A stretch of 64,000 nt of DNA from Parcubacteria group bacterium (GTDB lineage: Bacteria > Patescibacteriota > Minisyncoccia > Moranbacterales > UBA9337), in the NCBI GenBank assembly GCA_041662245.1, contig JBAZSW010000005.1, positions 57,837-121,836 on the forward strand, written 5' to 3'. Below, in pieces: positions 1 to 8,622 of the stretch. How positions within the stretch are numbered: the stretch's first letter is position 1; every line of letters begins with the position of its first letter. Both the position numbers and the translations under genes were made by a program. The notes beneath the pieces were generated by a model, which searched no databases, had not been told where the DNA came from, and saw only the letters and a list, made by a program, of their open reading frames with translations.

Positions 1-1326
1 GTGATTCCGATTATTTCGGGTTGCGCTGAAAGCAAGTCCCAAAAATACGCAGTTGACCTAGAAATTTGGGGAAGTTTTGATGACACAGGAGATTTCTCAG
101 AGATAATTGGAGAATTTAAAAAAGCTAATCCATTTGTAGATAATATAATTTATAAAAAAGTACCTGTGGATAGTTATGAAAATGAATTAATTAACGCAAT
201 GGCTTCTGGCAATGGTCCTGATATATTTTTGATTAACAATGCTTGGATGCCTCGTTATGAAGATAAAGTAGCGCCAGCTCCTGATTACATTCTCAATGAA
301 AAAGATTATCGATCCAACTTTATCGATATTGCTGCTAATGATTTTATCGGAAAGCAGGGAGAGGTATATGGAACGCCACTTAGTGTTGATTCTCTGGCCT
401 TATACTATAATAAAGATTTATTTAATGCAGCAGGAATAACTAATCCTCCTGCCACTTGGAGTGAGCTATTGGATGATAGCAAAAAAATTACAAAATTGGA
501 CGATGTGAGTGAGATAAAAAAGTCAGGAATAGCGATGGGTACAGTTGAAAACATAAACCGATCGACAGATATCATTGATCTATTATTGTTTCAAAATGGA
601 GCACAGTTGCCAACTAAAAATAGCATTGGCTTTAAGCCTGATTATGAAATAGGAAAAAATGTTTTAGAATTTTATACTCAATTTGCGAAATTTAGTTCCC
701 CCGCTTATACTTGGAATAAAAATATGCATTATTCTATCGATGCATTTTATGAGGGAGATTTGGGTATGATGATAAATTATTCTTGGCATATTGATACTAT
801 AAAAAATAAAAATGCAAAATTGGATTTTGGTATTGCGCCTATTCCACAAATATCCAAAGATAGACCAGTTAATTATGCTAATTATTGGTCTTTTGTGGTT
901 AATAAAAATAAACAAATAAAACAAAAGACAAATGCAACTGCCATAACTAATGATATGCGAGTTCAGGAGGCTTGGCAGTTTTTGAAATTTTTAACTTGTA
1001 AAAATGAGGGCAAATTTACAGCTGTTAATTTTATAACAAAAAATAAGAAAGATTATGTGGTTAAAATAGACCCCGCCAGTTTATACATAGAAAATACTAA
1101 AAAACCAGCAGCTAGAAGAGATTTAATTGAAAAACAAAAAAATAATCCTCTCTTGAGTCCATTTGTTTACGGTAATCTAATAACTAAATCATGGTATAAG
1201 AAAAACTCTAATGCTATTGAAGGTATTTGGGCGGAAGTTGTGGGAGACATAAATAAAGGAGATATTACAGAAGCGCAGGCCTTTCATTTGGTGGACTATA
1301 GGATAAAGCAAGTGAATGTGGAATAA
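1..1326 (+). CDS. ABC transporter extracellular solute-binding lipoprotein (family 1, MalE-like); 5' end runs off window
   Basis: Lipobox-like ISGC near N-term. Length and motif pattern are typical of SBP family 1. The ORF starts at base 1 with GTG, so it is 5'-partial. Confidence 0.65.
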   Translation: MIPIISGCAESKSQKYAVDLEIWGSFDDTGDFSEIIGEFKKANPFVDNIIYKKVPVDSYENELINAMASGNGPDIFLINNAWMPRYEDKVAPAPDYILNEKDYRSNFIDIAANDFIGKQGEVYGTPLSVDSLALYYNKDLFNAAGITNPPATWSELLDDSKKITKLDDVSEIKKSGIAMGTVENINRSTDIIDLLLFQNGAQLPTKNSIGFKPDYEIGKNVLEFYTQFAKFSSPAYTWNKNMHYSIDAFYEGDLGMMINYSWHIDTIKNKNAKLDFGIAPIPQISKDRPVNYANYWSFVVNKNKQIKQKTNATAITNDMRVQEAWQFLKFLTCKNEGKFTAVNFITKNKKDYVVKIDPASLYIENTKKPAARRDLIEKQKNNPLLSPFVYGNLITKSWYKKNSNAIEGIWAEVVGDINKGDITEAQAFHLVDYRIKQVNVE

Positions 1327-1364
1327 TATGAGATTATAATTGATGATTAAATATATTTTAATCA

Positions 1365-2441
1365 ATGAAACCAAAAACAAATAAAAAAATATTCTTTCTT
1401 TTAGCATTGTTTTTTTTAACTTTTGCTTTTCAAATTCAAGCAGCCGATACAAATACCGGATTAGTTCCTTGTGGTCTTGATTCCACTTATGCAAATAGAT
1501 GCACCCTATGTCATTTAATCGTAGGAATTAGAGATATTATTGATTGGGGAAAAACTATTTTAATTGTTGTGGCCTTAGTGGCTATTGTTGCAGGAGCCAT
1601 AATGTACATAGTTAGTGCTGGAAATAATACTTTAATGGAAGCAGCTAAAAATGTTATCAAACAAGCTCTTTGGGGCGTCGTTATAGTTTTAGGAGCATGG
1701 GTAATTGTTAACACTGCCCTATGGTTGATAACTTCCAAGCTAAATGATTCTGGATCTAGCAGTCAGAAATTTTTAGATATTTCCAGTTGGAATGATTTTC
1801 AATGTACGGGGGGAGGAACTACTCCGGGAACAGTTGACCCAGTTAGCAAGCCTCTTAATGCAGATGGTTCCTGCCCAAGTGGTTATCACAAATCGTCTAG
1901 CGGTACGTTGTGTATAGAGGATGATAAAGTCACCAACCCAGACATTGTAGATCCAGATACCACAGATCCAGATACTACTAATCCAGATGTCACCAACCCA
2001 GATGTTATTAATCCTGATACTGCAGCTAACGATGTGAGTAAATTAGATGAAGATGGAACCAGAAGTTATTTGAACGATCATGGGATAACTGTAAATAAAG
2101 GAGCTTGCACTGCAGGGCAAACCAGTGGTTGCACGGATACTGACGGGCTAAGAGAGAATACTATAAACGGTGTTGTTCTTTTTAAGGAAGAATGTGGTGC
2201 TAGTTGCAATGTTGTCGTAACAGGTGGATCAGAAGGAAATGGAATACATAGCGAGAGGGGAACTTATAACCATATTAACGGATATAAAGTAGATATAAGA
2301 ACAGGTGAGGCTGTGGATAACTATATCACTAACAATTATACAAAAATTCCTACTCGAAGTGATGGAGCAACAGGTTATATCGATAGCTCTGGAAATAAAT
2401 ATTATAAAGAAGGAGATCACTGGGACATAACTTATATTTAG
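1365..2441 (+). CDS. T4SS-pilin-like (TrbC/VirB2-like) N-terminal module fused to a [T/N]PD[V/T][T/I] repeat linker and a Cys/His-rich C-terminal domain (possible M15-like peptidoglycan peptidase)
   Basis: Signal peptide, a CGL..C..C motif, then two TM helices flanking the SAG..AK loop shared with the downstream pilin paralogs. Five-residue PD repeats at nt 1930-2020. The C-terminal pattern HINGYKVD....DHWD weakly resembles the M15 Zn-peptidase motif. Confidence 0.55.
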   Translation: MKPKTNKKIFFLLALFFLTFAFQIQAADTNTGLVPCGLDSTYANRCTLCHLIVGIRDIIDWGKTILIVVALVAIVAGAIMYIVSAGNNTLMEAAKNVIKQALWGVVIVLGAWVIVNTALWLITSKLNDSGSSSQKFLDISSWNDFQCTGGGTTPGTVDPVSKPLNADGSCPSGYHKSSSGTLCIEDDKVTNPDIVDPDTTDPDTTNPDVTNPDVINPDTAANDVSKLDEDGTRSYLNDHGITVNKGACTAGQTSGCTDTDGLRENTINGVVLFKEECGASCNVVVTGGSEGNGIHSERGTYNHINGYKVDIRTGEAVDNYITNNYTKIPTRSDGATGYIDSSGNKYYKEGDHWDITYI

Positions 2442-2444
2442 AAA

Positions 2445-3560
2445 ATGAAACCAAAAACAAATAAAAAAATATTCTTTCTTTTAGCATTGTTTTTTTTAAC
2501 TTTTGCTTTTCAAATTCAAGCAGCCGATACAAATACCGGATTAGTTCCTTGTGGTCTTGATTCCACTTATGCAAATAGATGCACCCTATGTCATTTAATC
2601 GTAGGAATTAGAGATATTATTGATTGGGGAAAAACTATTTTAATTGTTGTGGCCTTAGTGGCTATTGTTGCAGGAGCCATAATGTACATAGTTAGTGCTG
2701 GAAATAATACTTTAATGGAAGCAGCTAAAAATGTTATCAAACAAGCTCTTTGGGGCGTCGTTATAGTTTTAGGAGCATGGGTAATTGTTAACACTGCCCT
2801 ATGGTTGATAACTTCCAAGCTAAATGATTCTGGATCTAGCAGTCAGAAATTTTTAGATATTTCCAGTTGGAATGATTTTCAATGTAAGGGGGGAGGAGGT
2901 GGCACTTCCACATCAACATCAACTTCAACTTCTACCTCCACATCTACTTCCACATCAACTTCAACTTCTACCTCCACATCTCCCGGAACGGGTACTATCC
3001 CTGATGCTTGCAAAAAATATGAAAGTGACTTCAGCAGTGCTGCAGGTGGAGATAATAATTTAAAATGTTTAATGATTGGAATAGCTAATAGTGAAAGTAA
3101 TTGCAACCCAAATATAGGCAACAGTTCAGCAGGCGCTTGTGGGATGATGCAAATTGTTCCTACCAGTGGAGTGGATTGTAATGAGTTAAGGAGTAATCCG
3201 CAGTCAAGTATTACAAGGGCTACTAGTATGATAAATAGTAATAAAAGTACGCTTGGTAGCAGGTATAGTTCAACTTTTGATATAGGAAATAGTAGTGGAC
3301 TAAGTGGTAAAAGTGTAACTTACGGAAATCATACTTATGATACAGGCAATGATGATCTAATTGCTTCTTATAATGGAGGAACAGGATCAGGAATTAATAG
3401 TAATGGAACTAAGCAACCCTTTGCTAAATCAACGGATTGTCCCACGACCAATCCAGCCACTCCCGCTTGGCAATGCAATATTAATCCGGTGGGTTTTAAT
3501 AAGACTCAGGATTATGTAAAATCAGTGCAAGACACTCAGAAAAAATGTTTGGGCAATTAG
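2445..3560 (+). CDS. T4SS-pilin-like N-terminal module fused to a (Thr-Ser)n linker and a lytic transglycosylase (SLT/VirB1-like) domain
   Basis: N-terminal 147 aa are identical to the upstream gene (nt 2443-2886 = 1363-1806). C-terminal IANSESNC...GACGMMQIVPTSG...SYNGG matches the SLT family-1 catalytic motifs (ES, GLMQ, YN). Confidence 0.7.
   Translation: MKPKTNKKIFFLLALFFLTFAFQIQAADTNTGLVPCGLDSTYANRCTLCHLIVGIRDIIDWGKTILIVVALVAIVAGAIMYIVSAGNNTLMEAAKNVIKQALWGVVIVLGAWVIVNTALWLITSKLNDSGSSSQKFLDISSWNDFQCKGGGGGTSTSTSTSTSTSTSTSTSTSTSTSTSPGTGTIPDACKKYESDFSSAAGGDNNLKCLMIGIANSESNCNPNIGNSSAGACGMMQIVPTSGVDCNELRSNPQSSITRATSMINSNKSTLGSRYSSTFDIGNSSGLSGKSVTYGNHTYDTGNDDLIASYNGGTGSGINSNGTKQPFAKSTDCPTTNPATPAWQCNINPVGFNKTQDYVKSVQDTQKKCLGN
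2896..2988 (+). repeat. In-frame tandem (TS)n coding repeat (two ~40-bp units) forming a flexible linker
   Basis: acttccacatcaac...ttctacctccacatct occurs twice and translates to (TS)~23. Confidence 0.8.
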
Positions 3561-3594: not shown

Positions 3595-3867
3595 ATGAAA
3601 ATAATAGAAATCGCTAAGGCAGGAGCAATTGAAGATGCCCCAACATTTTCTCAAATAGGGGGAAGTATAGTTAGTTTTATGTTGCAGGTTTTGGGAATTT
3701 TTGCTATAATAGGTTTGACGGTTACTGCTATCTTATATTTTACAGCAGGAGGGAATGAAGAAAGAATTAAGCTAGCTAAAAAATCATTTTTTTATTCTGT
3801 AGTGGGGATACTTATAGCCTTAGGTACGATGTTATTTTTATCACAGATCAAAAATTTTTTACAATAA
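3595..3867 (+). CDS. TrbC/VirB2-like T4SS pilin-like small membrane protein (paralog 1)
   Basis: Two TM helices flank a conserved YFTAGGNEERIKLAKKS loop. It is a paralog of the downstream array. Confidence 0.55.
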   Translation: MKIIEIAKAGAIEDAPTFSQIGGSIVSFMLQVLGIFAIIGLTVTAILYFTAGGNEERIKLAKKSFFYSVVGILIALGTMLFLSQIKNFLQ

Positions 3868-3915
3868 ATATATAAAAAAATAAAATAGAAATTTTCTTTG
3901 AAAGGAGGTGAGCTT

Positions 3916-4269
3916 ATGAAAACAAAAATAAAAAAAATAGTTTATTCAATTTCCTCTCTCGGTTTAGTAGCCCCTGTTATGATTCTTGCTTACACACCGC
4001 CATCTGATACAACTCTTCCAGAGGGAAGCATTACTGCTATCGTCAAACAATTTATGACTTGGATTTTAGGAATGGTGGGATTCTTAGGAGTAATTGGCTT
4101 TGCTATTGCTGGAATTCTTTATCTTACTTCTGCTGGTGATGAAGATAGAATTGGAACAGCTAAAAAGGCAATGACTTGGTCAATTGTCGGTGTAATCGTA
4201 GCTCTTTTGGGAGTAGTGATTATTAAAGCGGCTGATTCTATGCTTAAGGGAACATCTTCTGAGTTCTAA
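3916..4269 (+). CDS. TrbC/VirB2-like T4SS pilin-like protein (paralog 2)
   Basis: RBS aaaggaggtg precedes the ATG at 3916 (the ORF track starts at 3898). Signal peptide, LYLTSAGDEDRIGTAKKAMTWSI motif, and a C-terminal ML.GTSS tail. Confidence 0.65.
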   Translation: MKTKIKKIVYSISSLGLVAPVMILAYTPPSDTTLPEGSITAIVKQFMTWILGMVGFLGVIGFAIAGILYLTSAGDEDRIGTAKKAMTWSIVGVIVALLGVVIIKAADSMLKGTSSEF

Positions 4270-4343
4270 TTTTACATAAAATTAAAAATGGGGTTATTTT
4301 GATTATTTTATTTTTTTAAAATAACCCCGCTAAAAAAAATAAA

Positions 4344-4700
4344 ATGAAAAAAATAATTTATGGTTTGATGTCAGCGGCCTTGGTACTTCCTAGTTTTGCT
4401 TTGGGTCAATGGAGTGAGGGATATAATATGGCTTCTAGCTCAGGTGTGCCAGATGGAGGAATATTGGACATAGTAACTAATATAATGGATTGGCTTCTGA
4501 TACTTTTGGGAATATTTGGAATAATTGGTTTTGTTATTTCTGGTATTCTTTATTTGACAGCAGCAGGAGATGATGATCGAATGGCATCAGCTAAAAAAGC
4601 GATGTATTGGTCTATTTTGGGGGTAATCGTAGGAATAGTAGGGTTTGTAGTTATCAAAGCAGCCGATGCTATGCTTAGTGGAACTAGTTCTACTTTTTAA
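4344..4700 (+). CDS. TrbC/VirB2-like T4SS pilin-like protein (paralog 3)
   Basis: Signal peptide; NIMDWLLILLG...LYLTAAGDDDRMASAKKAMYWSI...AADAMLSGTSSTF. Confidence 0.65.
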   Translation: MKKIIYGLMSAALVLPSFALGQWSEGYNMASSSGVPDGGILDIVTNIMDWLLILLGIFGIIGFVISGILYLTAAGDDDRMASAKKAMYWSILGVIVGIVGFVVIKAADAMLSGTSSTF

Positions 4701-4722
4701 TATTTTATAAAAAAAGTAAAAT

Positions 4723-5067
4723 ATGAAAAAAACATTATCAAAATTTTTGGTATTGGGGCTATTTTTCCCTCTCATAACTTTGGCACAATGGACTAAGCCT
4801 ACCACGACTGGTTTACCGTCAAATACGATAAGTGCAATAGTAACCAATATAATGAATTGGCTTTTGATACTGTTAGGAGCTTTTGGAATAATTGGTTTCG
4901 TTGTTTCTGGAATTCTTTATTTGACAGCGGCAGGAAGAGATGACCAAATGGAATCAGCTAAAAAGGCAATGACTTGGTCTATTATTGGTGTGATTGTGGG
5001 TTTAATTGGACTGGTCATTATTACAGCAGCCGAAGCGATGCTGGGTGCAACTAGCGCTAGGTTTTAA
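4723..5067 (+). CDS. TrbC/VirB2-like T4SS pilin-like protein (paralog 4)
   Basis: Same architecture and motif (LYLTAAGRDDQMESAKKAMTWSI). Confidence 0.65.
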   Translation: MKKTLSKFLVLGLFFPLITLAQWTKPTTTGLPSNTISAIVTNIMNWLLILLGAFGIIGFVVSGILYLTAAGRDDQMESAKKAMTWSIIGVIVGLIGLVIITAAEAMLGATSARF

Positions 5068-5108
5068 AGATTTCTACGAAATTTGTTTATTTTTTTACAC
5101 TTTAAATT

Positions 5109-5462
5109 ATGATGATTAAAAAGACATCATTAAAAATATTTAGTTTTTTTGTTTTAACGCTGCCAATGTTAGTGTCGGCTCAATACACAGCGCCAAAAGA
5201 CACGAAACTTCCCACAGGAGAATTAGCCACTATTATAACTAATATAATGAATTGGCTACTGGTAATTTTGGGAGTAATTGGAGTAATTGGTTTTGTTATT
5301 GCAGGAATTTTTTATTTAACAGCGGCGGGAAATGATGATCAAATAAGTACAGCTAAAAAGGCGATGACTTGGTCGGTTGTGGGGGTAATTGTGGGGTTAG
5401 TAGGTTTGGTAATTATTACAGCTGTTGAAACAATGTTGGGCGGGACTGATCCTAAATTTTAA
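5109..5462 (+). CDS. TrbC/VirB2-like T4SS pilin-like protein (paralog 5)
   Basis: Same architecture and motif (FYLTAAGNDDQISTAKKAMTWSV). Confidence 0.65.
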   Translation: MMIKKTSLKIFSFFVLTLPMLVSAQYTAPKDTKLPTGELATIITNIMNWLLVILGVIGVIGFVIAGIFYLTAAGNDDQISTAKKAMTWSVVGVIVGLVGLVIITAVETMLGGTDPKF

Positions 5463-5475
5463 TTTTAATTAATAT

Positions 5476-5874
5476 ATGAAAAATAAATTTGCTATATTTT
5501 TTTTATTGCTAGGATTGGTTTTTTTTGCTGGAAAAGTTTTAGCTGTGACTTGTCCCAGCTCAGGGAGTTGGGATAGTTCGTCGGGAGTCTGCATTCCTAA
5601 TAATACTGGATTACCTTCTCCAGGAGGAGATAGCCCTTTGGCAACTGTAATTAATAATGTAATGAAGTGGCTGCTTCTTATAGTAGGATCTATAGCTATC
5701 ATTGCTTTTGTGATTTCGGGTATTCAATATTTAACTTCTGCGGGAGATCAAAATGCAATTGAAAACGCCAAACGAAATATGTGGTGGTCGATTGTGGGAG
5801 TAGTAGTTGCTCTAATAGGGATGATAATTCTTAATTTTGTTTTTACGACTATTTTGGGTGGGTCTTCTTCGTAA
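5476..5874 (+). CDS. TrbC/VirB2-like T4SS pilin-like protein (paralog 6, with an extra Cys-containing N-terminal segment)
   Basis: Signal peptide; CPSSGSWDSSSGVC; QYLTSAGDQNAIENAKRNMWWSI. Confidence 0.6.
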   Translation: MKNKFAIFFLLLGLVFFAGKVLAVTCPSSGSWDSSSGVCIPNNTGLPSPGGDSPLATVINNVMKWLLLIVGSIAIIAFVISGIQYLTSAGDQNAIENAKRNMWWSIVGVVVALIGMIILNFVFTTILGGSSS

Positions 5875-5928
5875 AGTTAATTAATCTGAATTTAAGTTTA
5901 TTTTAAATAATATAAATAAAATATTAAA

Positions 5929-6564
5929 ATGAAAATTTTAAATTTTAAAAAAATAATAGCCAGTTTTCTGATGAGTATTTTTATATTTTGTGGTTCCTTT
6001 AATTTAGCTTTAGCGGCTTGTGCTACAGGAACTACGGCTAGTGGAAATATTTGTTTTGAAAACCCTTTGTCTTATAATACCGTAGATGGAATTTTAAGCG
6101 CGCTTCTTATTCATTTACAGGGGATAATCGTGGTAATTTCGATGGTTTTTATTGTGATCGGAGCTATCCTTTATATGACTTCAGCTGGAGATGAAGGAAA
6201 AATGAAAATAGCTAAAGGAGCAATTTTTGCGGCGGTGATCGGACTGGCGATTGGAATCGCGGCGCCATCATTTTTAAAAGAAATTTATACTGCCTTAGGA
6301 AAAAGTACTAGTGATAGTCTTATTTCTTCTGCTCCAGATCTGGCTACAATTGCACTTAATGTCCTTAACTTTTTGCTTAGCGTTACAGGAGTGATTGGAA
6401 TTATAATGTTGGTAGCAGCAGGAATAGCCTATATGACCGCAGCTGGAAATGAAGGTCAAATTGAAACAGCTAAAAAAATGACTACTTGGGCAATTATTGG
6501 AATTGCAGTAGCTTTGGGAGCTTTGGTAATAGTTCAACAAGTGGCTAAATTTTTCTCTACATAG
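5929..6564 (+). CDS. Tandem two-domain TrbC/VirB2-like pilin-like protein (paralog 7, internal duplication)
   Basis: Two successive TM-loop-TM modules: LYMTSAGDEGKMKIAKGAIFAAV and AYMTAAGNEGQIETAKKMTTWAI. Confidence 0.6.
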   Translation: MKILNFKKIIASFLMSIFIFCGSFNLALAACATGTTASGNICFENPLSYNTVDGILSALLIHLQGIIVVISMVFIVIGAILYMTSAGDEGKMKIAKGAIFAAVIGLAIGIAAPSFLKEIYTALGKSTSDSLISSAPDLATIALNVLNFLLSVTGVIGIIMLVAAGIAYMTAAGNEGQIETAKKMTTWAIIGIAVALGALVIVQQVAKFFST

Positions 6565-6630
6565 AAATAGGATATTATTTAAAATCGCAAACACATTATA
6601 GGGTGTTTGTTTTTTTGTAAAATAAAAAAA

Positions 6631-6663: not shown

Positions 6664-7809
6664 TTATTCCCGCACCTCCTTTTCGATAGTGATGGTCAAA
6701 GGATTGACCGTTGAATTTTTGAAGGCTGGCCTTCTTATCACTGAAGAATTAAATTCATCAGGTCTCATAAGGATGTTAATCCTCATTGAGAGATCCGAAT
6801 CTTTATTCATTGAAATGACGAATCCTTCTTCAGTTTTTGGAGTAATATTCTCTCCGTTATTGAGAAGGATTATGGCCCCAAAATTCATCTTCTTTTCTTG
6901 CCTGAATTCTGGTTTGCCCCCAAGGGCATTATCCCCCTGCCATGGAAATTCCGTCCATGAGTGATTACTCATGAAAAGTTGCCAGTTACCGGAAATTTTA
7001 ATCCGGTAATTTCCTTCCTCGAGTCTTTTAAGACTCAAAGGAATTTTAGCAATGCATTGGTTGTGAGCAATATCAAATTGCTCAACTTGAGAAAAGTCAA
7101 CAACCTTTTTTTCGATGACTTTCTCCCAACCGAATGTTTTTCCGTTAGGTCCCCATTCTATCATTCGAATAGGGACAAGAGCCTTGGGACTTTTCACAAA
7201 ATGACCGTGTTCATTAGATATTAACACGTAAGCCATTCCTTCGCTCCCATCATTTTGCTTTTTGCTTTCAATTCCAAGGGACATAACTTTCTGACCCTTT
7301 TTAAGAAACAGGTCTGATATTATGTTCCCATTCTCATCGTACGCCGGAGAGCTTTCTTTCATTTCTCCAAAAGTTCCGGTGTTAGACTCCGATTTCATCA
7401 TTTCTTTTTTCATTGAAATGGTGGAATCTTCGGTCCTTTTTACGAACAATTCTTTGCTACTTTTTTTGAATCCGGCGTAAGCAGGATTGTTTCTAGTGAC
7501 AAGATTGTCAATTGCAGGAAAAACTATTCCTAAAAAAACAACCTCGAAAACAAACCATACTGCCCAGATGGCGAGCAGGAAATTTCTTGCAGGCCTTATA
7601 ATGGGTATCCATATTCCCAAGGTAATCAATATAAATAGCACAAAGAAAATTTCTTTGTAAACTACTACAAATGAAAACCCAAAGATTATGCAGAAAAGAA
7701 ATAATCCCCCTAATAGTACAGGGATGATTATCCTTGTGGTAGGACCAGAAATAAAACTCCAGACGTAACCAATCAAAGCGCCGATAAAAGAAAAAATAGT
7801 TCTAAACAT
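6664..7809 (-). CDS. Hypothetical integral membrane protein (4 N-terminal TM helices plus a ~250-aa soluble domain)
   Basis: Long ORF with a hydrophobic N-terminus and no recognisable motif. Confidence 0.5.
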   Translation of the reverse strand: MFRTIFSFIGALIGYVWSFISGPTTRIIIPVLLGGLFLFCIIFGFSFVVVYKEIFFVLFILITLGIWIPIIRPARNFLLAIWAVWFVFEVVFLGIVFPAIDNLVTRNNPAYAGFKKSSKELFVKRTEDSTISMKKEMMKSESNTGTFGEMKESSPAYDENGNIISDLFLKKGQKVMSLGIESKKQNDGSEGMAYVLISNEHGHFVKSPKALVPIRMIEWGPNGKTFGWEKVIEKKVVDFSQVEQFDIAHNQCIAKIPLSLKRLEEGNYRIKISGNWQLFMSNHSWTEFPWQGDNALGGKPEFRQEKKMNFGAIILLNNGENITPKTEEGFVISMNKDSDLSMRINILMRPDEFNSSVIRRPAFKNSTVNPLTITIEKEVRE

Positions 7810-7830: not shown

Positions 7831-8622
7831 TTATTGTTTTTTGTTGTCTTTGAGCCACTGAGTGGCATCTTTAACCAAATCACTTAAGTCTTGAGACTCA
7901 AGCTTGGCCTTGGTACCTAATTTTCCTGCTACTTTCGCGGCGGTAGATTTTTTTTCTACTGTGATAGTGGAGAAAAAATTCTTTCTCTTTAGCCACTGTA
8001 GAATAGAACCATGGTCGCTGTGGGACATCATTCGTTTAATGAATCCCTGAGCGAGAGTGTAATTGTAAACAATCTCAACTTCCACAGGTTTTCCATTCTT
8101 TCCGCCACCAGTTTTTATTTCCTTGCTGGTGATTTTTTTGACTATTACTTCACGAATTTTTTCGGATCGTTTTTTTCCATCGGGCTGTTGCTCTTCGAGC
8201 CAACCCATAAAACTTTCGAAGGAATCTATTATTGTCTGATCCATTCCTTCAAGGGCATTATCACAAAGCACTTCGTCTCCAAGAGATTTCTCGCCGATTT
8301 CAAACATCTTTTCCACCTGTGAGGTTAATTTCTCCCCGATTTTTCTACTTCCGCTTTCAATGGCGCTGGTAAAAATGTGTCCAAAGGGGGAACTTAAAAA
8401 ACTCCATATCTTTGAAAAAAATCCGATTGTTGCAGCTGCCATGGTAGTTCTCCTCATTAAGTTGTCAAAGAGCCTCTGGGAGGCTCCAGTTAATGTTGCC
8501 TCTGAGTCATCAGATATGCCGGTTCTTTTATGTGTTTTGGCATAAAAATGCCTAATATAGACACAAAAAGGGCAATATATTTGATGACCCTTAATACTAG
8601 CACGTTTTTGTGTTTTTGTCAA
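7831..8622 (-). CDS. Hypothetical protein (the true start is probably an internal Met, ~200 aa)
   Basis: Long ORF transcribed divergently from the PaaX-like gene. Confidence 0.4.
   Translation of the reverse strand: MTKTQKRASIKGHQIYCPFCVYIRHFYAKTHKRTGISDDSEATLTGASQRLFDNLMRRTTMAAATIGFFSKIWSFLSSPFGHIFTSAIESGSRKIGEKLTSQVEKMFEIGEKSLGDEVLCDNALEGMDQTIIDSFESFMGWLEEQQPDGKKRSEKIREVIVKKITSKEIKTGGGKNGKPVEVEIVYNYTLAQGFIKRMMSHSDHGSILQWLKRKNFFSTITVEKKSTAAKVAGKLGTKAKLESQDLSDLVKDATQWLKDNKKQ

What the first reader, a model, noticed from the sequence alone, without database searches (positions are those of the whole stretch)
1363..3560. Two tandem genes share a 444-bp nucleotide-identical pilin-like 5' module but carry different linkers and different cell-wall-hydrolase C-termini
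Nt 1363-1806 and 2443-2886 are identical base for base, covering the RBS region plus 147 codons. These encode a signal peptide, a CGL..C..C segment and a two-TM TrbC/VirB2-like pilin fold. From 1807 and 2887 the two genes become unrelated. Gene 1 continues into [T/N]PD[V/T][T/I] pentapeptide repeats and a Cys/His-rich domain with an M15-peptidase-like H..G.K.D...DHW pattern. Gene 2 continues into a (TS)23 linker and a domain with unmistakable SLT lytic-transglycosylase motifs (ES...GACGMMQIVPT...YNGG). Perfect identity over 444 bp beside complete divergence points to recent gene conversion or cassette-style exchange of effector domains on a constant pilin-like anchor. Functionally this is a pilus-tethered peptidoglycan-degrading pair, a VirB1-like activity fused to the pilin itself. 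It could serve its own T4SS-like pilus assembly or attack a host or partner cell wall. This domain-swapped pilin-hydrolase duplication may be an undescribed arrangement.
Basis: partly seen in the sequence, partly recalled or inferred. Interest (0 to 1): 0.85.

Follow-up and report, generated by a model that had tools for sequence, protein, structure and literature searches.

The report
Twin pilin-anchored cell-wall hydrolase genes
Two neighbouring genes of an ultra-small (CPR/Patescibacteria) bacterium carry the same secretion-pilus subunit module fused to two different cell-wall-cutting enzymes; gene conversion keeps the shared module identical here and in several distant relatives, which may account for the wall-opening enzyme reported missing from these bacteria's type IV secretion systems.

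Summary
Window 1364-1806 and 2444-2886 are identical (443 nt, 453/454 to 1817/2897), giving two tandem genes with the same first 147 residues and unrelated C-termini.

- **Gene 2:** a family-1 lytic transglycosylase (Pfam SLT above threshold, E217-S218).
- **Gene 1:** an uncatalogued domain of 1,910 cluster representatives. It has a Hedgehog/DD-peptidase (LAS) fold and an invariant H-x6-D...E-x2-H-x-D.
- **Locus:** seven free pilin genes and a terminator-like hairpin follow, inside a conserved chromosomal neighbourhood.

The pair is old and widespread in Moranbacteria-like lineages. In five of eight genomes the two pilin modules are 96-100% identical at nucleotide level. Orthologues between genomes are only 54-70% identical, so gene conversion is recurrent.

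In other CPR classes the pilin-peptidase fusion lies 1-3 kb from virB4. Most likely these are VirB1/PrgK-like wall hydrolases delivered by a pilin module. Pilus display or attack on a host wall is not excluded. No searched paper describes the fusion. I rate it a new variant of a known kind.

The parts
1364..1806 (+). Repeat copy A: 1 nt upstream of the ATG plus codons 1-147 of ORF1
   Evidence: Exact 443-nt identity with 2444-2886; 453/454 to 1817
2444..2886 (+). Repeat copy B: 1 nt upstream of the ATG plus codons 1-147 of ORF2
1365..2441 (+). ORF1 (358 aa): pilin module, linker and Hedgehog/DD-peptidase-like 'X' domain. Identical to MFA6184207.1, 'MAG: pilin [Parcubacteria group bacterium]'
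1365..1442 (+). Predicted signal peptide, aa 1-26 (...FQIQA|AD). The same sequence is at 2445-2522 in ORF2
   Evidence: Read from the sequence; hydrophobic segment aa 8-28. The cleavage site is inferred
1443..1805 (+). Mature pilin module, aa 27-147. It has a Cys motif (LVPCG..x..CTLCH; C36, C46, C49), two long hydrophobic helices joined by the Y-x-x-S-A-G-N loop, and a tail ending W..F.C147. The same sequence is at 2523-2885 in ORF2
1857..1922 (+). Small two-Cys 'knob' in the ORF1 linker (ADGSCPSGYHKSSSGTLCIEDD; C170, C183)
   Evidence: Conserved in homologues. In L001, L059 and L060 it sits on the SLT paralogue instead
1932..2021 (+). Six pentapeptide repeats [T/V/I][N/D]PD[I/T/V], aa 190-219 (linker)
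2028..2438 (+). 'X' domain, aa 222-358. Putative zinc peptidoglycan peptidase with a Hedgehog/DD-peptidase (LAS) fold. Invariant E290, H295, H303, G306, K308, D310, E349, H352, D354, plus four conserved Cys
2445..3560 (+). ORF2 (371 aa): identical pilin module, (TS)13 linker and an SLT lytic transglycosylase
2904..2981 (+). (TS)13 low-complexity linker, aa 154-179
   Evidence: (family D5)
3042..3413 (+). SLT domain core, aa 200-323. The catalytic candidate E217 is at 3093-3095. The conserved C-terminal region extends over 2970-3557
   Evidence: Pfam PF01464, E 2.2e-8, 34.1 bits against a cut-off of 21.3. A profile hits MltC, EmtA, Slt70 and MltF. E-S is invariant
3595..6564 (+). Array of seven free T4SS_pilin genes: 3595-3867, 3898-4269, 4344-4700, 4723-5067, 5109-5462, 5476-5874 and 5929-6564. 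The last encodes two pilin domains
   Evidence: Pfam PF18895 above the cut-off for the five array genes scanned; the 4723 and 5109 genes were assigned by phmmer to their neighbours. TrbC hit for the 5476 gene. Pairwise aa identity 26-61%
6587..6620 (+). Terminator-like hairpin plus T-run, directly after the last pilin gene
   Evidence: This is a consensus match only
1..1326 (+). Upstream solute-binding protein gene (SBP_bac_1). It is the conserved left neighbour of the locus in relatives (context, not part of the system)

Best explanation
The locus is a chromosomal operon of a CPR/Patescibacteria (Moranbacteria-like) bacterium. It encodes two pilin-anchored peptidoglycan hydrolases followed by seven ordinary VirB2-like pilins.

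Each hydrolase gene encodes the following, in order:
1. A cleavable signal peptide.
2. An extracytoplasmic Cys motif.
3. A two-helix T4SS pilin hairpin.
4. A flexible low-complexity linker.
5. An extracytoplasmic enzyme.

In ORF2 the enzyme is a family-1 lytic transglycosylase, which cuts glycan strands. In ORF1 it is a zinc peptidase of the Hedgehog/DD-peptidase (LAS) fold, which would cut the peptide stems or cross-links.

Inferred mechanism. The pilin module is inserted in the membrane and handled by the T4SS pilus-assembly platform like any pilin. This brings the two complementary wall-cutting activities to the place where the pilus or channel must cross the cell wall. They would thus serve as the VirB1/PrgK/CwlT-type hydrolase of this monoderm T4SS, split over two genes. 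With both pilin termini outside, the enzymes could also be carried on the outside of the filament.

Shown: the two pilin modules are kept identical by ongoing gene conversion between the tandem copies. The conversion tracts stop where homology ends, at the start codon or signal peptide on one side and at the linker on the other.

Inferred: identity is favoured because both enzymes must fit the same assembly site or polymer.
For: Domains:
- N-module against the window's free pilins: hhalign 98.7%, E 3.9e-16.
- SLT is above the Pfam cut-off. A profile hits MltC, EmtA, Slt70 and MltF.
- H303-x6-D310 and E349-x2-H352-x-D354 are invariant in 39-148 diverse members. The motif aligns on the Hedgehog zinc site (Roelink 2018, PMC6027127).

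T4SS link:
- Seven PF18895 pilin genes follow in the same orientation, ending at a terminator-like hairpin.
- The pilin-X fusion lies 1-3 kb downstream of a VirB4-like ATPase in L003, L004, L026, L027 and L032; L010 has a VirB4 fragment about 4.5 kb upstream.
- 86 of 148 X-domain representatives carry T4SS_pilin.
- The essential Southlakia T4SS cluster has a lysozyme-like protein and a Hedgehog/DD-peptidase protein next to virB4 (Wang 2023, Table S2).
- Quinonero-Coronel 2025 report that most Patescibacteria with VirB2 lack a detectable VirB1.

Gene conversion:
- Within-genome nucleotide identity of the two modules: window 443/443; L056 99.7% over 326 nt; L051 97.6% over 291 nt; L048 95.9% over 315 nt; L039 80/80 nt before the contig ends. 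Orthologues are 54-70% identical.
- In L039 both copies share 7 differences from the window in the first 80 nt.
- In L001 a 92%-identical tract covers only the helical hairpin. There, 82% of same-residue codons are identical, against 40-52% between genomes.
- The N-modules do not cluster by C-terminal domain type.
Against: - No VirB4, VirB6 or other T4SS core gene is in the 64-kb window or within 10 kb upstream of the syntenic L001 locus. The link to a T4SS therefore rests on the pilins and on other lineages.
- The N-module scores below the Pfam gathering threshold on its own (18.6 vs 26.6 bits).
- The second zinc motif is H-x-D, not the canonical H-x-H.
- Enzyme activity, membrane topology, pilus incorporation and the substrate (own wall or host wall) are all untested.
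- In L001, L059 and L034 the modules have diverged (82-84% and 69%), so identity is not obligatory.
Confidence: 0.65

Rival explanations
1. Enzyme-decorated attack pilus. The fused subunits are polymerised into the T4SS pilus as minor pilins, with their C-terminal enzymes on the filament surface or tip. Their target is the cell wall of the host or partner bacterium, to breach it for attachment, nutrient or DNA uptake or effector delivery, rather than the producer's own wall.
For: - The pilin family's most conserved loop motif (Y-x-x-[ST]-A-G-[ND]...AK) is retained in the fused module.
- With a VirB2-like topology the C-terminus lies outside the membrane and pilus. This is my own knowledge of F and T pilus structures, not tested here.
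- Long flexible linkers of 48-78 aa.
- CPR bacteria are epibionts, and their T4SS and pilin array are essential for growth on hosts (Wang 2023).
- The X domain also occurs in toxin-type contexts (PT-TG, WXG100, eCIS_core) and with PG-binding domains.
- Close X homologues exist in Actinobacteria, the known hosts of Saccharibacteria.
- Strict identity of the two modules would suit co-polymerisation.
Against: - There is no evidence that any CPR pilin polymerises, and none for incorporation of a subunit with a 20-kDa appendage.
- Monoderm conjugative T4SSs need membrane-anchored hydrolases for their own wall (PrgK, TraG, CwlT; references in PMC12102498). That is the simpler role.
- No immunity or inhibitor gene is apparent at the locus.
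Confidence: 0.2
2. Generic membrane anchor. The pilin-like hairpin has been co-opted only as a two-helix membrane anchor for housekeeping autolysins (growth or division wall remodelling). It would have no functional tie to a T4SS, and the adjacency to the pilin genes would reflect common descent only.
For: - No T4SS core genes lie near the locus in the window, L001, L034 or L037.
- The neighbourhood is housekeeping: SBP, PGI, RNase J, IF-2, RbfA.
- The fused module forms a distinct Cys-motif subfamily only about 20% identical to the free pilins.
- Some genomes have lost one of the two genes: L037 has no SLT gene, and L060 has only an X remnant.
Against: - The fusions are always directly upstream of, and co-oriented with, a free-pilin array in Moranbacteria-like loci.
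- They are next to virB4 in Paceibacteria-like, Wolfebacteria and other lineages.
- Nearly all hits to this X subfamily in CPR carry the pilin module.
- The conserved pilin loop motif is retained. A mere anchor would not need that.
Confidence: 0.1
3. Assembly artefact. The perfect identity, or the second gene itself, was produced when a metagenome assembler collapsed or mis-joined two similar sequences.
For: - The window comes from a MAG contig.
- A 443-nt exact repeat is longer than typical k-mers. Assemblers can pop bubbles between near-identical copies, which would overstate the identity.
- The ORF2 protein is not present in the protein collection, although ORF1 is.
- Contigs of the relative break inside the repeat.
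Against: - Both genes are complete and in frame, with different well-formed C-terminal domains.
- The X-stop/AAA/ATG junction recurs in two independent assemblies of a relative.
- The gene pair exists in at least 8 genomes. Three of them have 96-99.7% identical modules that still contain a few mismatches, so the copies were assembled separately.
Confidence: 0.04

Closest known systems
VirB2-like pilin arrays of the Patescibacteria T4SS (Wang et al. 2023, Cell, PMC10633639; Quinonero-Coronel et al. 2025, Microb Genom, PMC12102498; Pfam PF18895 T4SS_pilin)
   Same: - Same protein family, by hhalign and Pfam.
- Same tandem-array organisation: 2-11 pilin genes in the literature, 7 free plus 2 fused here.
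- Same phylum.
- Free pilins in the window are 26-61% identical to each other, much as reported (mean 25%, maximum 54%).
   Different: - Two array members carry C-terminal enzyme domains, which those papers do not mention.
- The pilin modules of these two members are 100% identical, far above the reported maximum of 54%.
- The fused module is a distinct subfamily with four Cys.
- The array here is not next to virB4.
Membrane-anchored cell-wall hydrolases of monoderm conjugative T4SSs (VirB1 analogues): PrgK of pCF10, TraG of pIP501, CwlT of ICEBs1 (as cited in PMC12102498; details from my own knowledge)
   Same: - An N-terminal membrane anchor plus an extracytoplasmic glycan-cleaving domain (SLT or muramidase) combined with a peptide-cleaving domain.
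- They are required locally to let the T4SS cross a thick wall.
   Different: - In the known systems both activities sit on one polypeptide with a simple TM helix or lipid anchor, and the peptidase is CHAP, NlpC/P60 or LytM.
- Here the activities are split over two genes, the anchor is a pilin module, and the peptidase has a Hedgehog/DD-peptidase fold.
SEML1_0006 and SEML1_0007 of Southlakia epibionticum: a lysozyme-like plus cysteine-proteinase protein and a protein of more than 1,100 aa with an ECOD 'Hedgehog/DD-peptidase' domain. Both are encoded beside virB4 and essential in Tn-seq (Wang 2023, Table S2)
   Same: The same two enzyme fold classes (lysozyme-like/SLT and Hedgehog/DD-peptidase) associated with a CPR T4SS.
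   Different: - Those are large multidomain proteins that were not reported as pilin fusions.
- Homology of their peptidase domain to the X domain was not tested here.
Hh/DD-peptidase (LAS) zinc peptidases: MEROPS M15 (VanX, VanY, LdcB, Streptomyces albus DD-peptidase), MepA (M74), Hedgehog N-domain and 'bacterial hedgehogs' (Roelink 2018, PMC6027127)
   Same: - The H-x6-D zinc motif.
- A conserved upstream Glu/His (T-G-G-S-E-x-x-x-x-H against Hedgehog [10 protein letters not shown]).
- A conserved Glu shortly before the last metal motif.
   Different: - No Pfam, NCBIfam or PDB sequence match at any useful threshold.
- The last motif is H-W-D, not H-x-H.
- Two extra disulfide-type Cys pairs.
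- The family is uncatalogued, although it has 1,910 cluster representatives.
Concerted evolution of tandem paralogues by gene conversion (for example tuf or rRNA genes, and pilin or antigen cassettes in Neisseria and Anaplasma; my own knowledge)
   Same: Paralogues within a genome are identical while orthologues diverge. There are mosaic tracts with sharp ends.
   Different: - Conversion is confined to one module of two genes that otherwise encode unrelated enzymes.
- It homogenises rather than diversifies.
- It recurs in deeply separated lineages.

Membership tests
T4SS pilin (Pfam PF18895 T4SS_pilin / VirB2-TrbC superfamily) | Family HMM match at or above the curated threshold | tested here: not met
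   18.6 bits against a gathering score of 26.6, E 0.002, aa 55-117. Many homologues of the module do carry precomputed PF18895 hits
T4SS pilin (Pfam PF18895 T4SS_pilin / VirB2-TrbC superfamily) | Homology to bona fide family members by profile-profile comparison | tested here: met
   hhalign of the module family (26 sequences) against the window's 8 free pilin domains: probability 98.7%, E 3.9e-16, 70 columns spanning both helices and the loop. The free pilin at 5476-5874 hits PF18895 (2.9e-12) and TrbC PF04956 (6.2e-5)
T4SS pilin (Pfam PF18895 T4SS_pilin / VirB2-TrbC superfamily) | Signal peptide followed by two long hydrophobic helices joined by a short loop (conjugative-pilin hairpin fold) | tested here: met
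   [not shown]
T4SS pilin (Pfam PF18895 T4SS_pilin / VirB2-TrbC superfamily) | Encoded with T4SS core genes (VirB4 and others) | tested here: inconclusive
   Not met in the window or in L001, L034 and L037. Met for pilin-X fusions in L003, L004, L026, L027 and L032. The remaining half of the source contig (about 64 of 127.7 kb) was not visible
T4SS pilin (Pfam PF18895 T4SS_pilin / VirB2-TrbC superfamily) | Polymerises into an extracellular pilus | not testable with these tools
   Needs microscopy or biochemistry. It has not been shown for any CPR pilin in the papers read
SLT / family-1 lytic transglycosylase (Pfam PF01464, GH23) | Family HMM match above the curated threshold | tested here: met
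   34.1 bits against 21.3, E 2.2e-8, aa 200-323. A profile of three orthologues hits MltC (1.4e-5), EmtA, Slt70 and MltF in the PDB
SLT / family-1 lytic transglycosylase (Pfam PF01464, GH23) | Catalytic Glu in the E-S motif, plus the G-[LM]-MQ and AYN-x-G motifs | tested here: met
   E217-S218, G-M-M-Q at 233 and Y-N-G-G at 309. E-S, MQ and YN-G are invariant in the three aligned orthologues
SLT / family-1 lytic transglycosylase (Pfam PF01464, GH23) | Muralytic activity producing 1,6-anhydro-muropeptides | not testable with these tools
   Requires an enzyme assay
Hh/DD-peptidase (LAS) zinc peptidases, MEROPS M15 and relatives | Sequence-model match to an M15, VanY or related family | tested here: not met
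   No Pfam or NCBIfam hit for ORF1, for actinobacterial homologues or for 39 diverse members even at E<=10. No significant PDB sequence hit
Hh/DD-peptidase (LAS) zinc peptidases, MEROPS M15 and relatives | Hedgehog/DD-peptidase fold | tested here: met
   [not shown]
Hh/DD-peptidase (LAS) zinc peptidases, MEROPS M15 and relatives | H-x(6)-D zinc-ligand motif | tested here: met
   H303-INGYKV-D310 is invariant in 148 and in 39 diverse sequences. It aligns with the Hedgehog LHYEGRAVD motif, which holds H141 and D148 of Shh (PMC6027127)
Hh/DD-peptidase (LAS) zinc peptidases, MEROPS M15 and relatives | Second motif H-x-H, with a catalytic Glu upstream | tested here: inconclusive
   The family has an invariant E349-G-D-H352-W-D354, that is E-x2-H-x-D. 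The Glu and the first His are present, but the second His is replaced by Asp.
T4SS-associated cell-wall hydrolases (VirB1 / PrgK / TraG / CwlT functional class) | Peptidoglycan-hydrolase domain(s), membrane or secretion targeting, and encoded within a T4SS gene cluster | tested here: inconclusive
   The hydrolase domains and the targeting module are met. Cluster membership is met only through the pilin array here, and through virB4 adjacency in other lineages
T4SS-associated cell-wall hydrolases (VirB1 / PrgK / TraG / CwlT functional class) | Required for T4SS assembly or transfer | not testable with these tools
   Needs genetics. The Southlakia hydrolase genes next to virB4 were reported essential, but these are different proteins

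The most novel reading that the evidence does not exclude
CPR bacteria build a type IV secretion pilus whose shaft or tip is studded with covalently attached wall-degrading enzymes, a glycan cutter and a peptide cutter on otherwise identical pilin subunits. This would be an 'enzymatic drill' that opens the host bacterium's cell wall for the epibiotic lifestyle. Gene conversion is selected to keep the polymerisation module of the two enzyme-bearing subunits identical so that both are incorporated equally.
Probability: 0.2. Interest if true: 0.85.

Novelty: new variant of a known kind. Interest (0 to 1): 0.62.

Why it matters
The Patescibacteria T4SS and its pilin array are essential for the epibiotic lifestyle of the one genetically tractable member. 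How it is built and what it does are both open questions. The 2025 survey (PMC12102498) concluded that most genomes with VirB2-like pilins lack a recognisable VirB1, so pilus biogenesis apparently does not need one.

The fusions described here offer a concrete alternative. The wall-opening enzymes are there, but they sit on pilin-family proteins, where a pilin HMM hit would count them as pilins. One of them also belongs to a large uncatalogued peptidase family that no HMM library names.

This gives directly testable predictions:
- muralytic activity of the two domains;
- dependence of pilus and T4SS assembly on them;
- presence or absence of the fused subunits in pili.

It also defines a new Hedgehog/DD-peptidase-fold family of 1,910 cluster representatives, shared between CPR bacteria, Actinobacteria and toxin-like proteins.

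Finally, it gives an unusually clean natural example of module-restricted concerted evolution. One domain of two otherwise unrelated enzymes is kept identical in several deeply diverged lineages, which points to a functional constraint on that module.

Tried and rejected
- **Exact-protein contig look-ups for ORF1 and ORF2** found nothing on record, although ORF1 is in the protein collection. The window's own contig could therefore not be extended.
- **Sequence searches of the X domain** gave no usable hit. These covered Pfam, NCBIfam and PDB, with a single sequence, a 10-sequence profile and a 39-sequence profile. Classification rests on fold and motifs.
- **phmmer of the SLT domain alone against the PDB** gave nothing. 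A three-sequence profile did hit.
- **Search for virB4 in the window.** Pfam scans of the 30 ORFs tested, including all those of 380 aa or more, and a phmmer search with the L004 VirB4 found none.
- **Purifying selection alone as the cause of the identity** was rejected. Synonymous positions are identical too, and both copies co-vary between genomes.
- **A recent one-off duplication in this genome** was rejected. The SLT/X pair with pilin modules exists in at least 8 genomes with conserved synteny.
- **A simple recombination path for the gene order** was not found. I could not derive the X->SLT order (window, L039) from the commoner SLT->X order; this remains unexplained.
- **A mobile-element origin** was rejected. 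The flanks are housekeeping genes in conserved order in several genomes.
- **Promoter scan.** It gave no more sites than shuffled sequence within error, and I did not use it.


Full report
**1. Observation**

The repeat is real. Window 1364-1806 equals 2444-2886 base for base (443 nt). There is then one C/A mismatch, followed by ten more identical bases, giving 453/454. Identity starts one base before each ATG, so it does not cover a ribosome-binding region.

ORF1 (1365-2441, 358 aa) and ORF2 (2445-3560, 371 aa) share residues 1-147 and are unalignable afterwards. The ORF2 linker is (TS)13, not (TS)23. ORF1 has six [T/V/I][N/D]PD[I/T/V] repeats.

ORF1 is identical to GenBank MFA6184207.1, 'MAG: pilin [Parcubacteria group bacterium]', from a 127,673-nt contig. 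The ORF2 sequence is absent from the protein collection.

**2. The shared module**

Residues 1-26 look like a signal peptide. The mature part has these features:
- an LVPCG...C-T-L-C-H motif;
- two long hydrophobic helices joined by Y-I-V-S-A-G-N;
- a tail ending W-x-x-F-x-C.

The four Cys are conserved across 26 homologues.

Pfam T4SS_pilin matches below threshold (18.6 vs 26.6 bits). A profile of the module family matches a profile of the window's own eight free pilin domains with 98.7% probability (E 3.9e-16) over both helices and the loop.

I accept the module as a divergent member of the VirB2-type T4SS pilin family.

**3. The two C-termini**

*ORF2.* Residues 200-323 match Pfam SLT above threshold. 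A three-sequence profile finds MltC, EmtA, Slt70 and MltF in the PDB. The E-S, G-M-M-Q and Y-N-G-G motifs are present and conserved.

*ORF1.* Residues 222-358 (the 'X' domain) have no Pfam, NCBIfam or PDB sequence match. They nevertheless define a large family: 1,910 representatives at E<=1e-3 among 1.84 billion 50%-identity clusters.

Across 39-148 diverse members the invariant residues are E290, H295, H303, G306, K308, D310, E349, H352 and D354. This gives H-x6-D plus E-x2-H-x-D. A sub-significant HMM alignment places the first block exactly on the Hedgehog zinc-site motif [24 protein letters not shown]. That motif contains the Shh zinc ligands H141 and D148 (PMC6027127).

The canonical second motif is H-x-H, whereas this family has H-x-D. 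So it works like an M15/LAS peptidase but cannot be filed in an existing family.

Some members carry PG_binding domains. Others carry PT-TG, WXG100 or eCIS_core modules. Actinobacteria encode it as a free secreted protein of about 167 aa.

**4. Context**

Seven co-oriented free pilin genes (3595-6564) follow. The last is a double pilin, and a terminator-like hairpin lies at 6587-6610. The free pilins are 26-61% identical to each other.

The rest of the window is ordinary chromosome: IF-2, RbfA, ArgRS, DnaK, MreB, PBP2, NrdD and MurA. It contains no virB4.

The neighbourhood SBP5-PGI-RNase J-methyltransferase-SBP1-[pilin-SLT]-pilin-X-pilins is conserved in Moraniibacteriota and metagenome relatives.

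In Paceibacterota, Wolfebacteria and unclassified Patescibacteria/bacterium MAG loci (L003, L004, L026, L027, L032) the pilin-X fusion lies 1-3 kb downstream of a VirB4-like ATPase; L010 has a VirB4 fragment about 4.5 kb upstream.

Of the 148 best X-domain representatives scanned, 86 hit T4SS_pilin and 15 hit TrbC. Pilin-SLT fusions form about 15 clusters. So the fusions are common, not a peculiarity of this genome.

**5. Gene conversion**

Eight genomes have both genes. The table gives the within-genome nucleotide identity of the two pilin modules.

| Genome | Identity of the two pilin modules |
|---|---|
| window | 443/443 |
| L056 | 99.7% over 326 nt (323 exact) |
| L051 | 97.6% over 291 nt (242 exact) |
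| L048 | 95.9% over 315 nt (178 exact) |
| L039 | 80/80 nt, then the contig ends |
| L059 | 84% |
| L001 | 82% |
| L034 | 69% |

Four lines of evidence point to repeated gene conversion:
- Over the mature module, L048, L051 and L056 are 100% identical in protein and 99-100% in DNA within a genome. Between genomes they are only 46-64% (protein) and 54-66% (DNA) identical.
- In L039, the closest relative, both copies share 7 differences from the window in the first 80 nt, and identity again begins 1 nt before the ATG.
- In L001 a 92%-identical tract covers only the helical hairpin. There, 82% of same-residue codons are identical, against 40-52% between genomes.
- The modules never cluster by C-terminal domain type.

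This is the signature of repeated gene conversion, not of selection on protein sequence and not of a single recent duplication. These data, together with the independent junctions in L039 and L040, also argue against an assembly artefact. Bubble-popping could still hide a few real differences in the window.

The gene order is SLT->X in seven genomes and X->SLT only in the window and L039. I could not derive one order from the other. Losses also occur: L037 has no SLT gene, and L060 retains only the last ~43 codons of X.

**6. Mechanism**

Shown:
- two secreted, membrane-inserted pilin-family modules carrying complementary wall-hydrolase folds;
- co-orientation, and presumably co-transcription, with free pilins;
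- adjacency to virB4 in other lineages;
- recurrent homogenisation of the module.

Inferred: the pilin module delivers the enzymes to the T4SS pilus-assembly site. There they open the producer's peptidoglycan, taking the role that PrgK, TraG and CwlT play in monoderm conjugation systems. Identity of the modules would ensure that both enzymes use the same docking or polymerisation interface.

The main rival is that the fused subunits are built into the pilus and act on the host wall. With a VirB2-like topology the C-terminus would face outward. The X domain also occurs in toxin contexts and in Actinobacteria.

**7. Comparison with what is known**

Pilin arrays and an essential T4SS in Patescibacteria are published. 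The Southlakia cluster already pairs a lysozyme-like protein and a Hedgehog/DD-peptidase-domain protein with virB4 (Table S2).

Three things appear in none of the papers found:
- fusion of such enzymes to pilin modules;
- the X family as such;
- the module-restricted concerted evolution.

The 2025 survey states that most genomes with VirB2 lack VirB1, and that array members share at most 54% identity. This locus bears on both statements.

**8. Verdict**

This is a real and well-supported feature. It is a new variant of a known kind: T4SS-associated wall hydrolases in an unreported pilin-fused, two-gene, concerted-evolution format. Interest is moderate to high (0.62). The functional claims remain inferences until tested.

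Noticed in passing
window 5929-6564; also L001 13199-13822, L042 2982-3608, L060 6892-7515: The last gene of the pilin array encodes two T4SS_pilin domains in one 207-211-aa protein, a tandem pilin. It is conserved at the same position in relatives.
   Followed up: partly
window 3595-3867; also L001 11184-11456, L037 7586-7858, L042 921-1193, L060 4852-5124: The first free pilin is a conserved 90-aa protein that seems to lack an N-terminal signal peptide (MKIIEIAKAGAIEDAPTF...), unlike the other array members.
   Followed up: no
L005-L009, L011-L018, L020, L021, L023, L025 (Streptomyces, Micromonospora, Nocardioides, Knoellia, Amycolatopsis): The X domain occurs at 37-45% identity as a stand-alone secreted protein of about 165-170 aa in many Actinobacteria. 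It has no Pfam or NCBIfam family there either. This could reflect exchange between CPR epibionts and actinobacterial hosts, or a shared antibacterial enzyme.
   Followed up: partly
L029 730-7779 (Nanoarchaeota MAG JBBSYF010000001); P0084 (988 aa): The X domain is also embedded in a 2,349-aa protein of a DPANN archaeon MAG and in a PT-TG (pre-toxin) protein. Other members carry WXG100 or eCIS_core hits, suggesting use as a toxin or effector domain.
   Followed up: partly
L060 4536-4769; L037 5039-7543; L042, L053, L054, L061: The pair decays in some genomes. L060 keeps only the last ~43 codons of X, directly after the SLT stop. L037 has pilin-X but no SLT gene. Four loci have pilin-SLT followed directly by free pilins.
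   Followed up: partly
window 1857-1922; L001 SLT gene; L059 and L060 SLT genes: A small two-Cys 'knob' (DG-x-C-P-x-G-Y-H...C) in the linker sits on the X paralogue in some genomes (window, L034, L037, L039) and on the SLT paralogue in others (L001, L059, L060). Linkers are otherwise unrelated low-complexity sequence (TS repeats, PD repeats, or a charged E/A/Q/R-rich, possibly helical, stretch in L001). This suggests that recombination sometimes carries linker parts across.
   Followed up: no
window 6664-7809 (-) and 7831-8622 (-): Two divergently oriented ORFs (381 and 263 aa) directly after the pilin operon have no Pfam or NCBIfam match. The first has a 52%-identical fragment at the same relative position in L042. 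It begins with several hydrophobic segments.
   Followed up: partly
window 2445-3560: The exact ORF2 protein is not in the 15-billion-protein collection, although ORF1 from the same contig is. ORF2 may be unannotated, called with another start or marked as a pseudogene in the source record, possibly because of the repeat or the TS run.
   Followed up: no
window vs L001, L034, L046, L048, L051, L056, L059: The gene order is X->SLT in the window and L039/L040 but SLT->X in seven other genomes. No simple recombination path between the two orders was found.
   Followed up: partly
window 4039-5476: Four central free pilin genes form a repeat family with 69-78% nucleotide identity and 51-61% aa identity. 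This is slightly above the 54% maximum reported for Patescibacteria pilin arrays (PMC12102498).
   Followed up: partly
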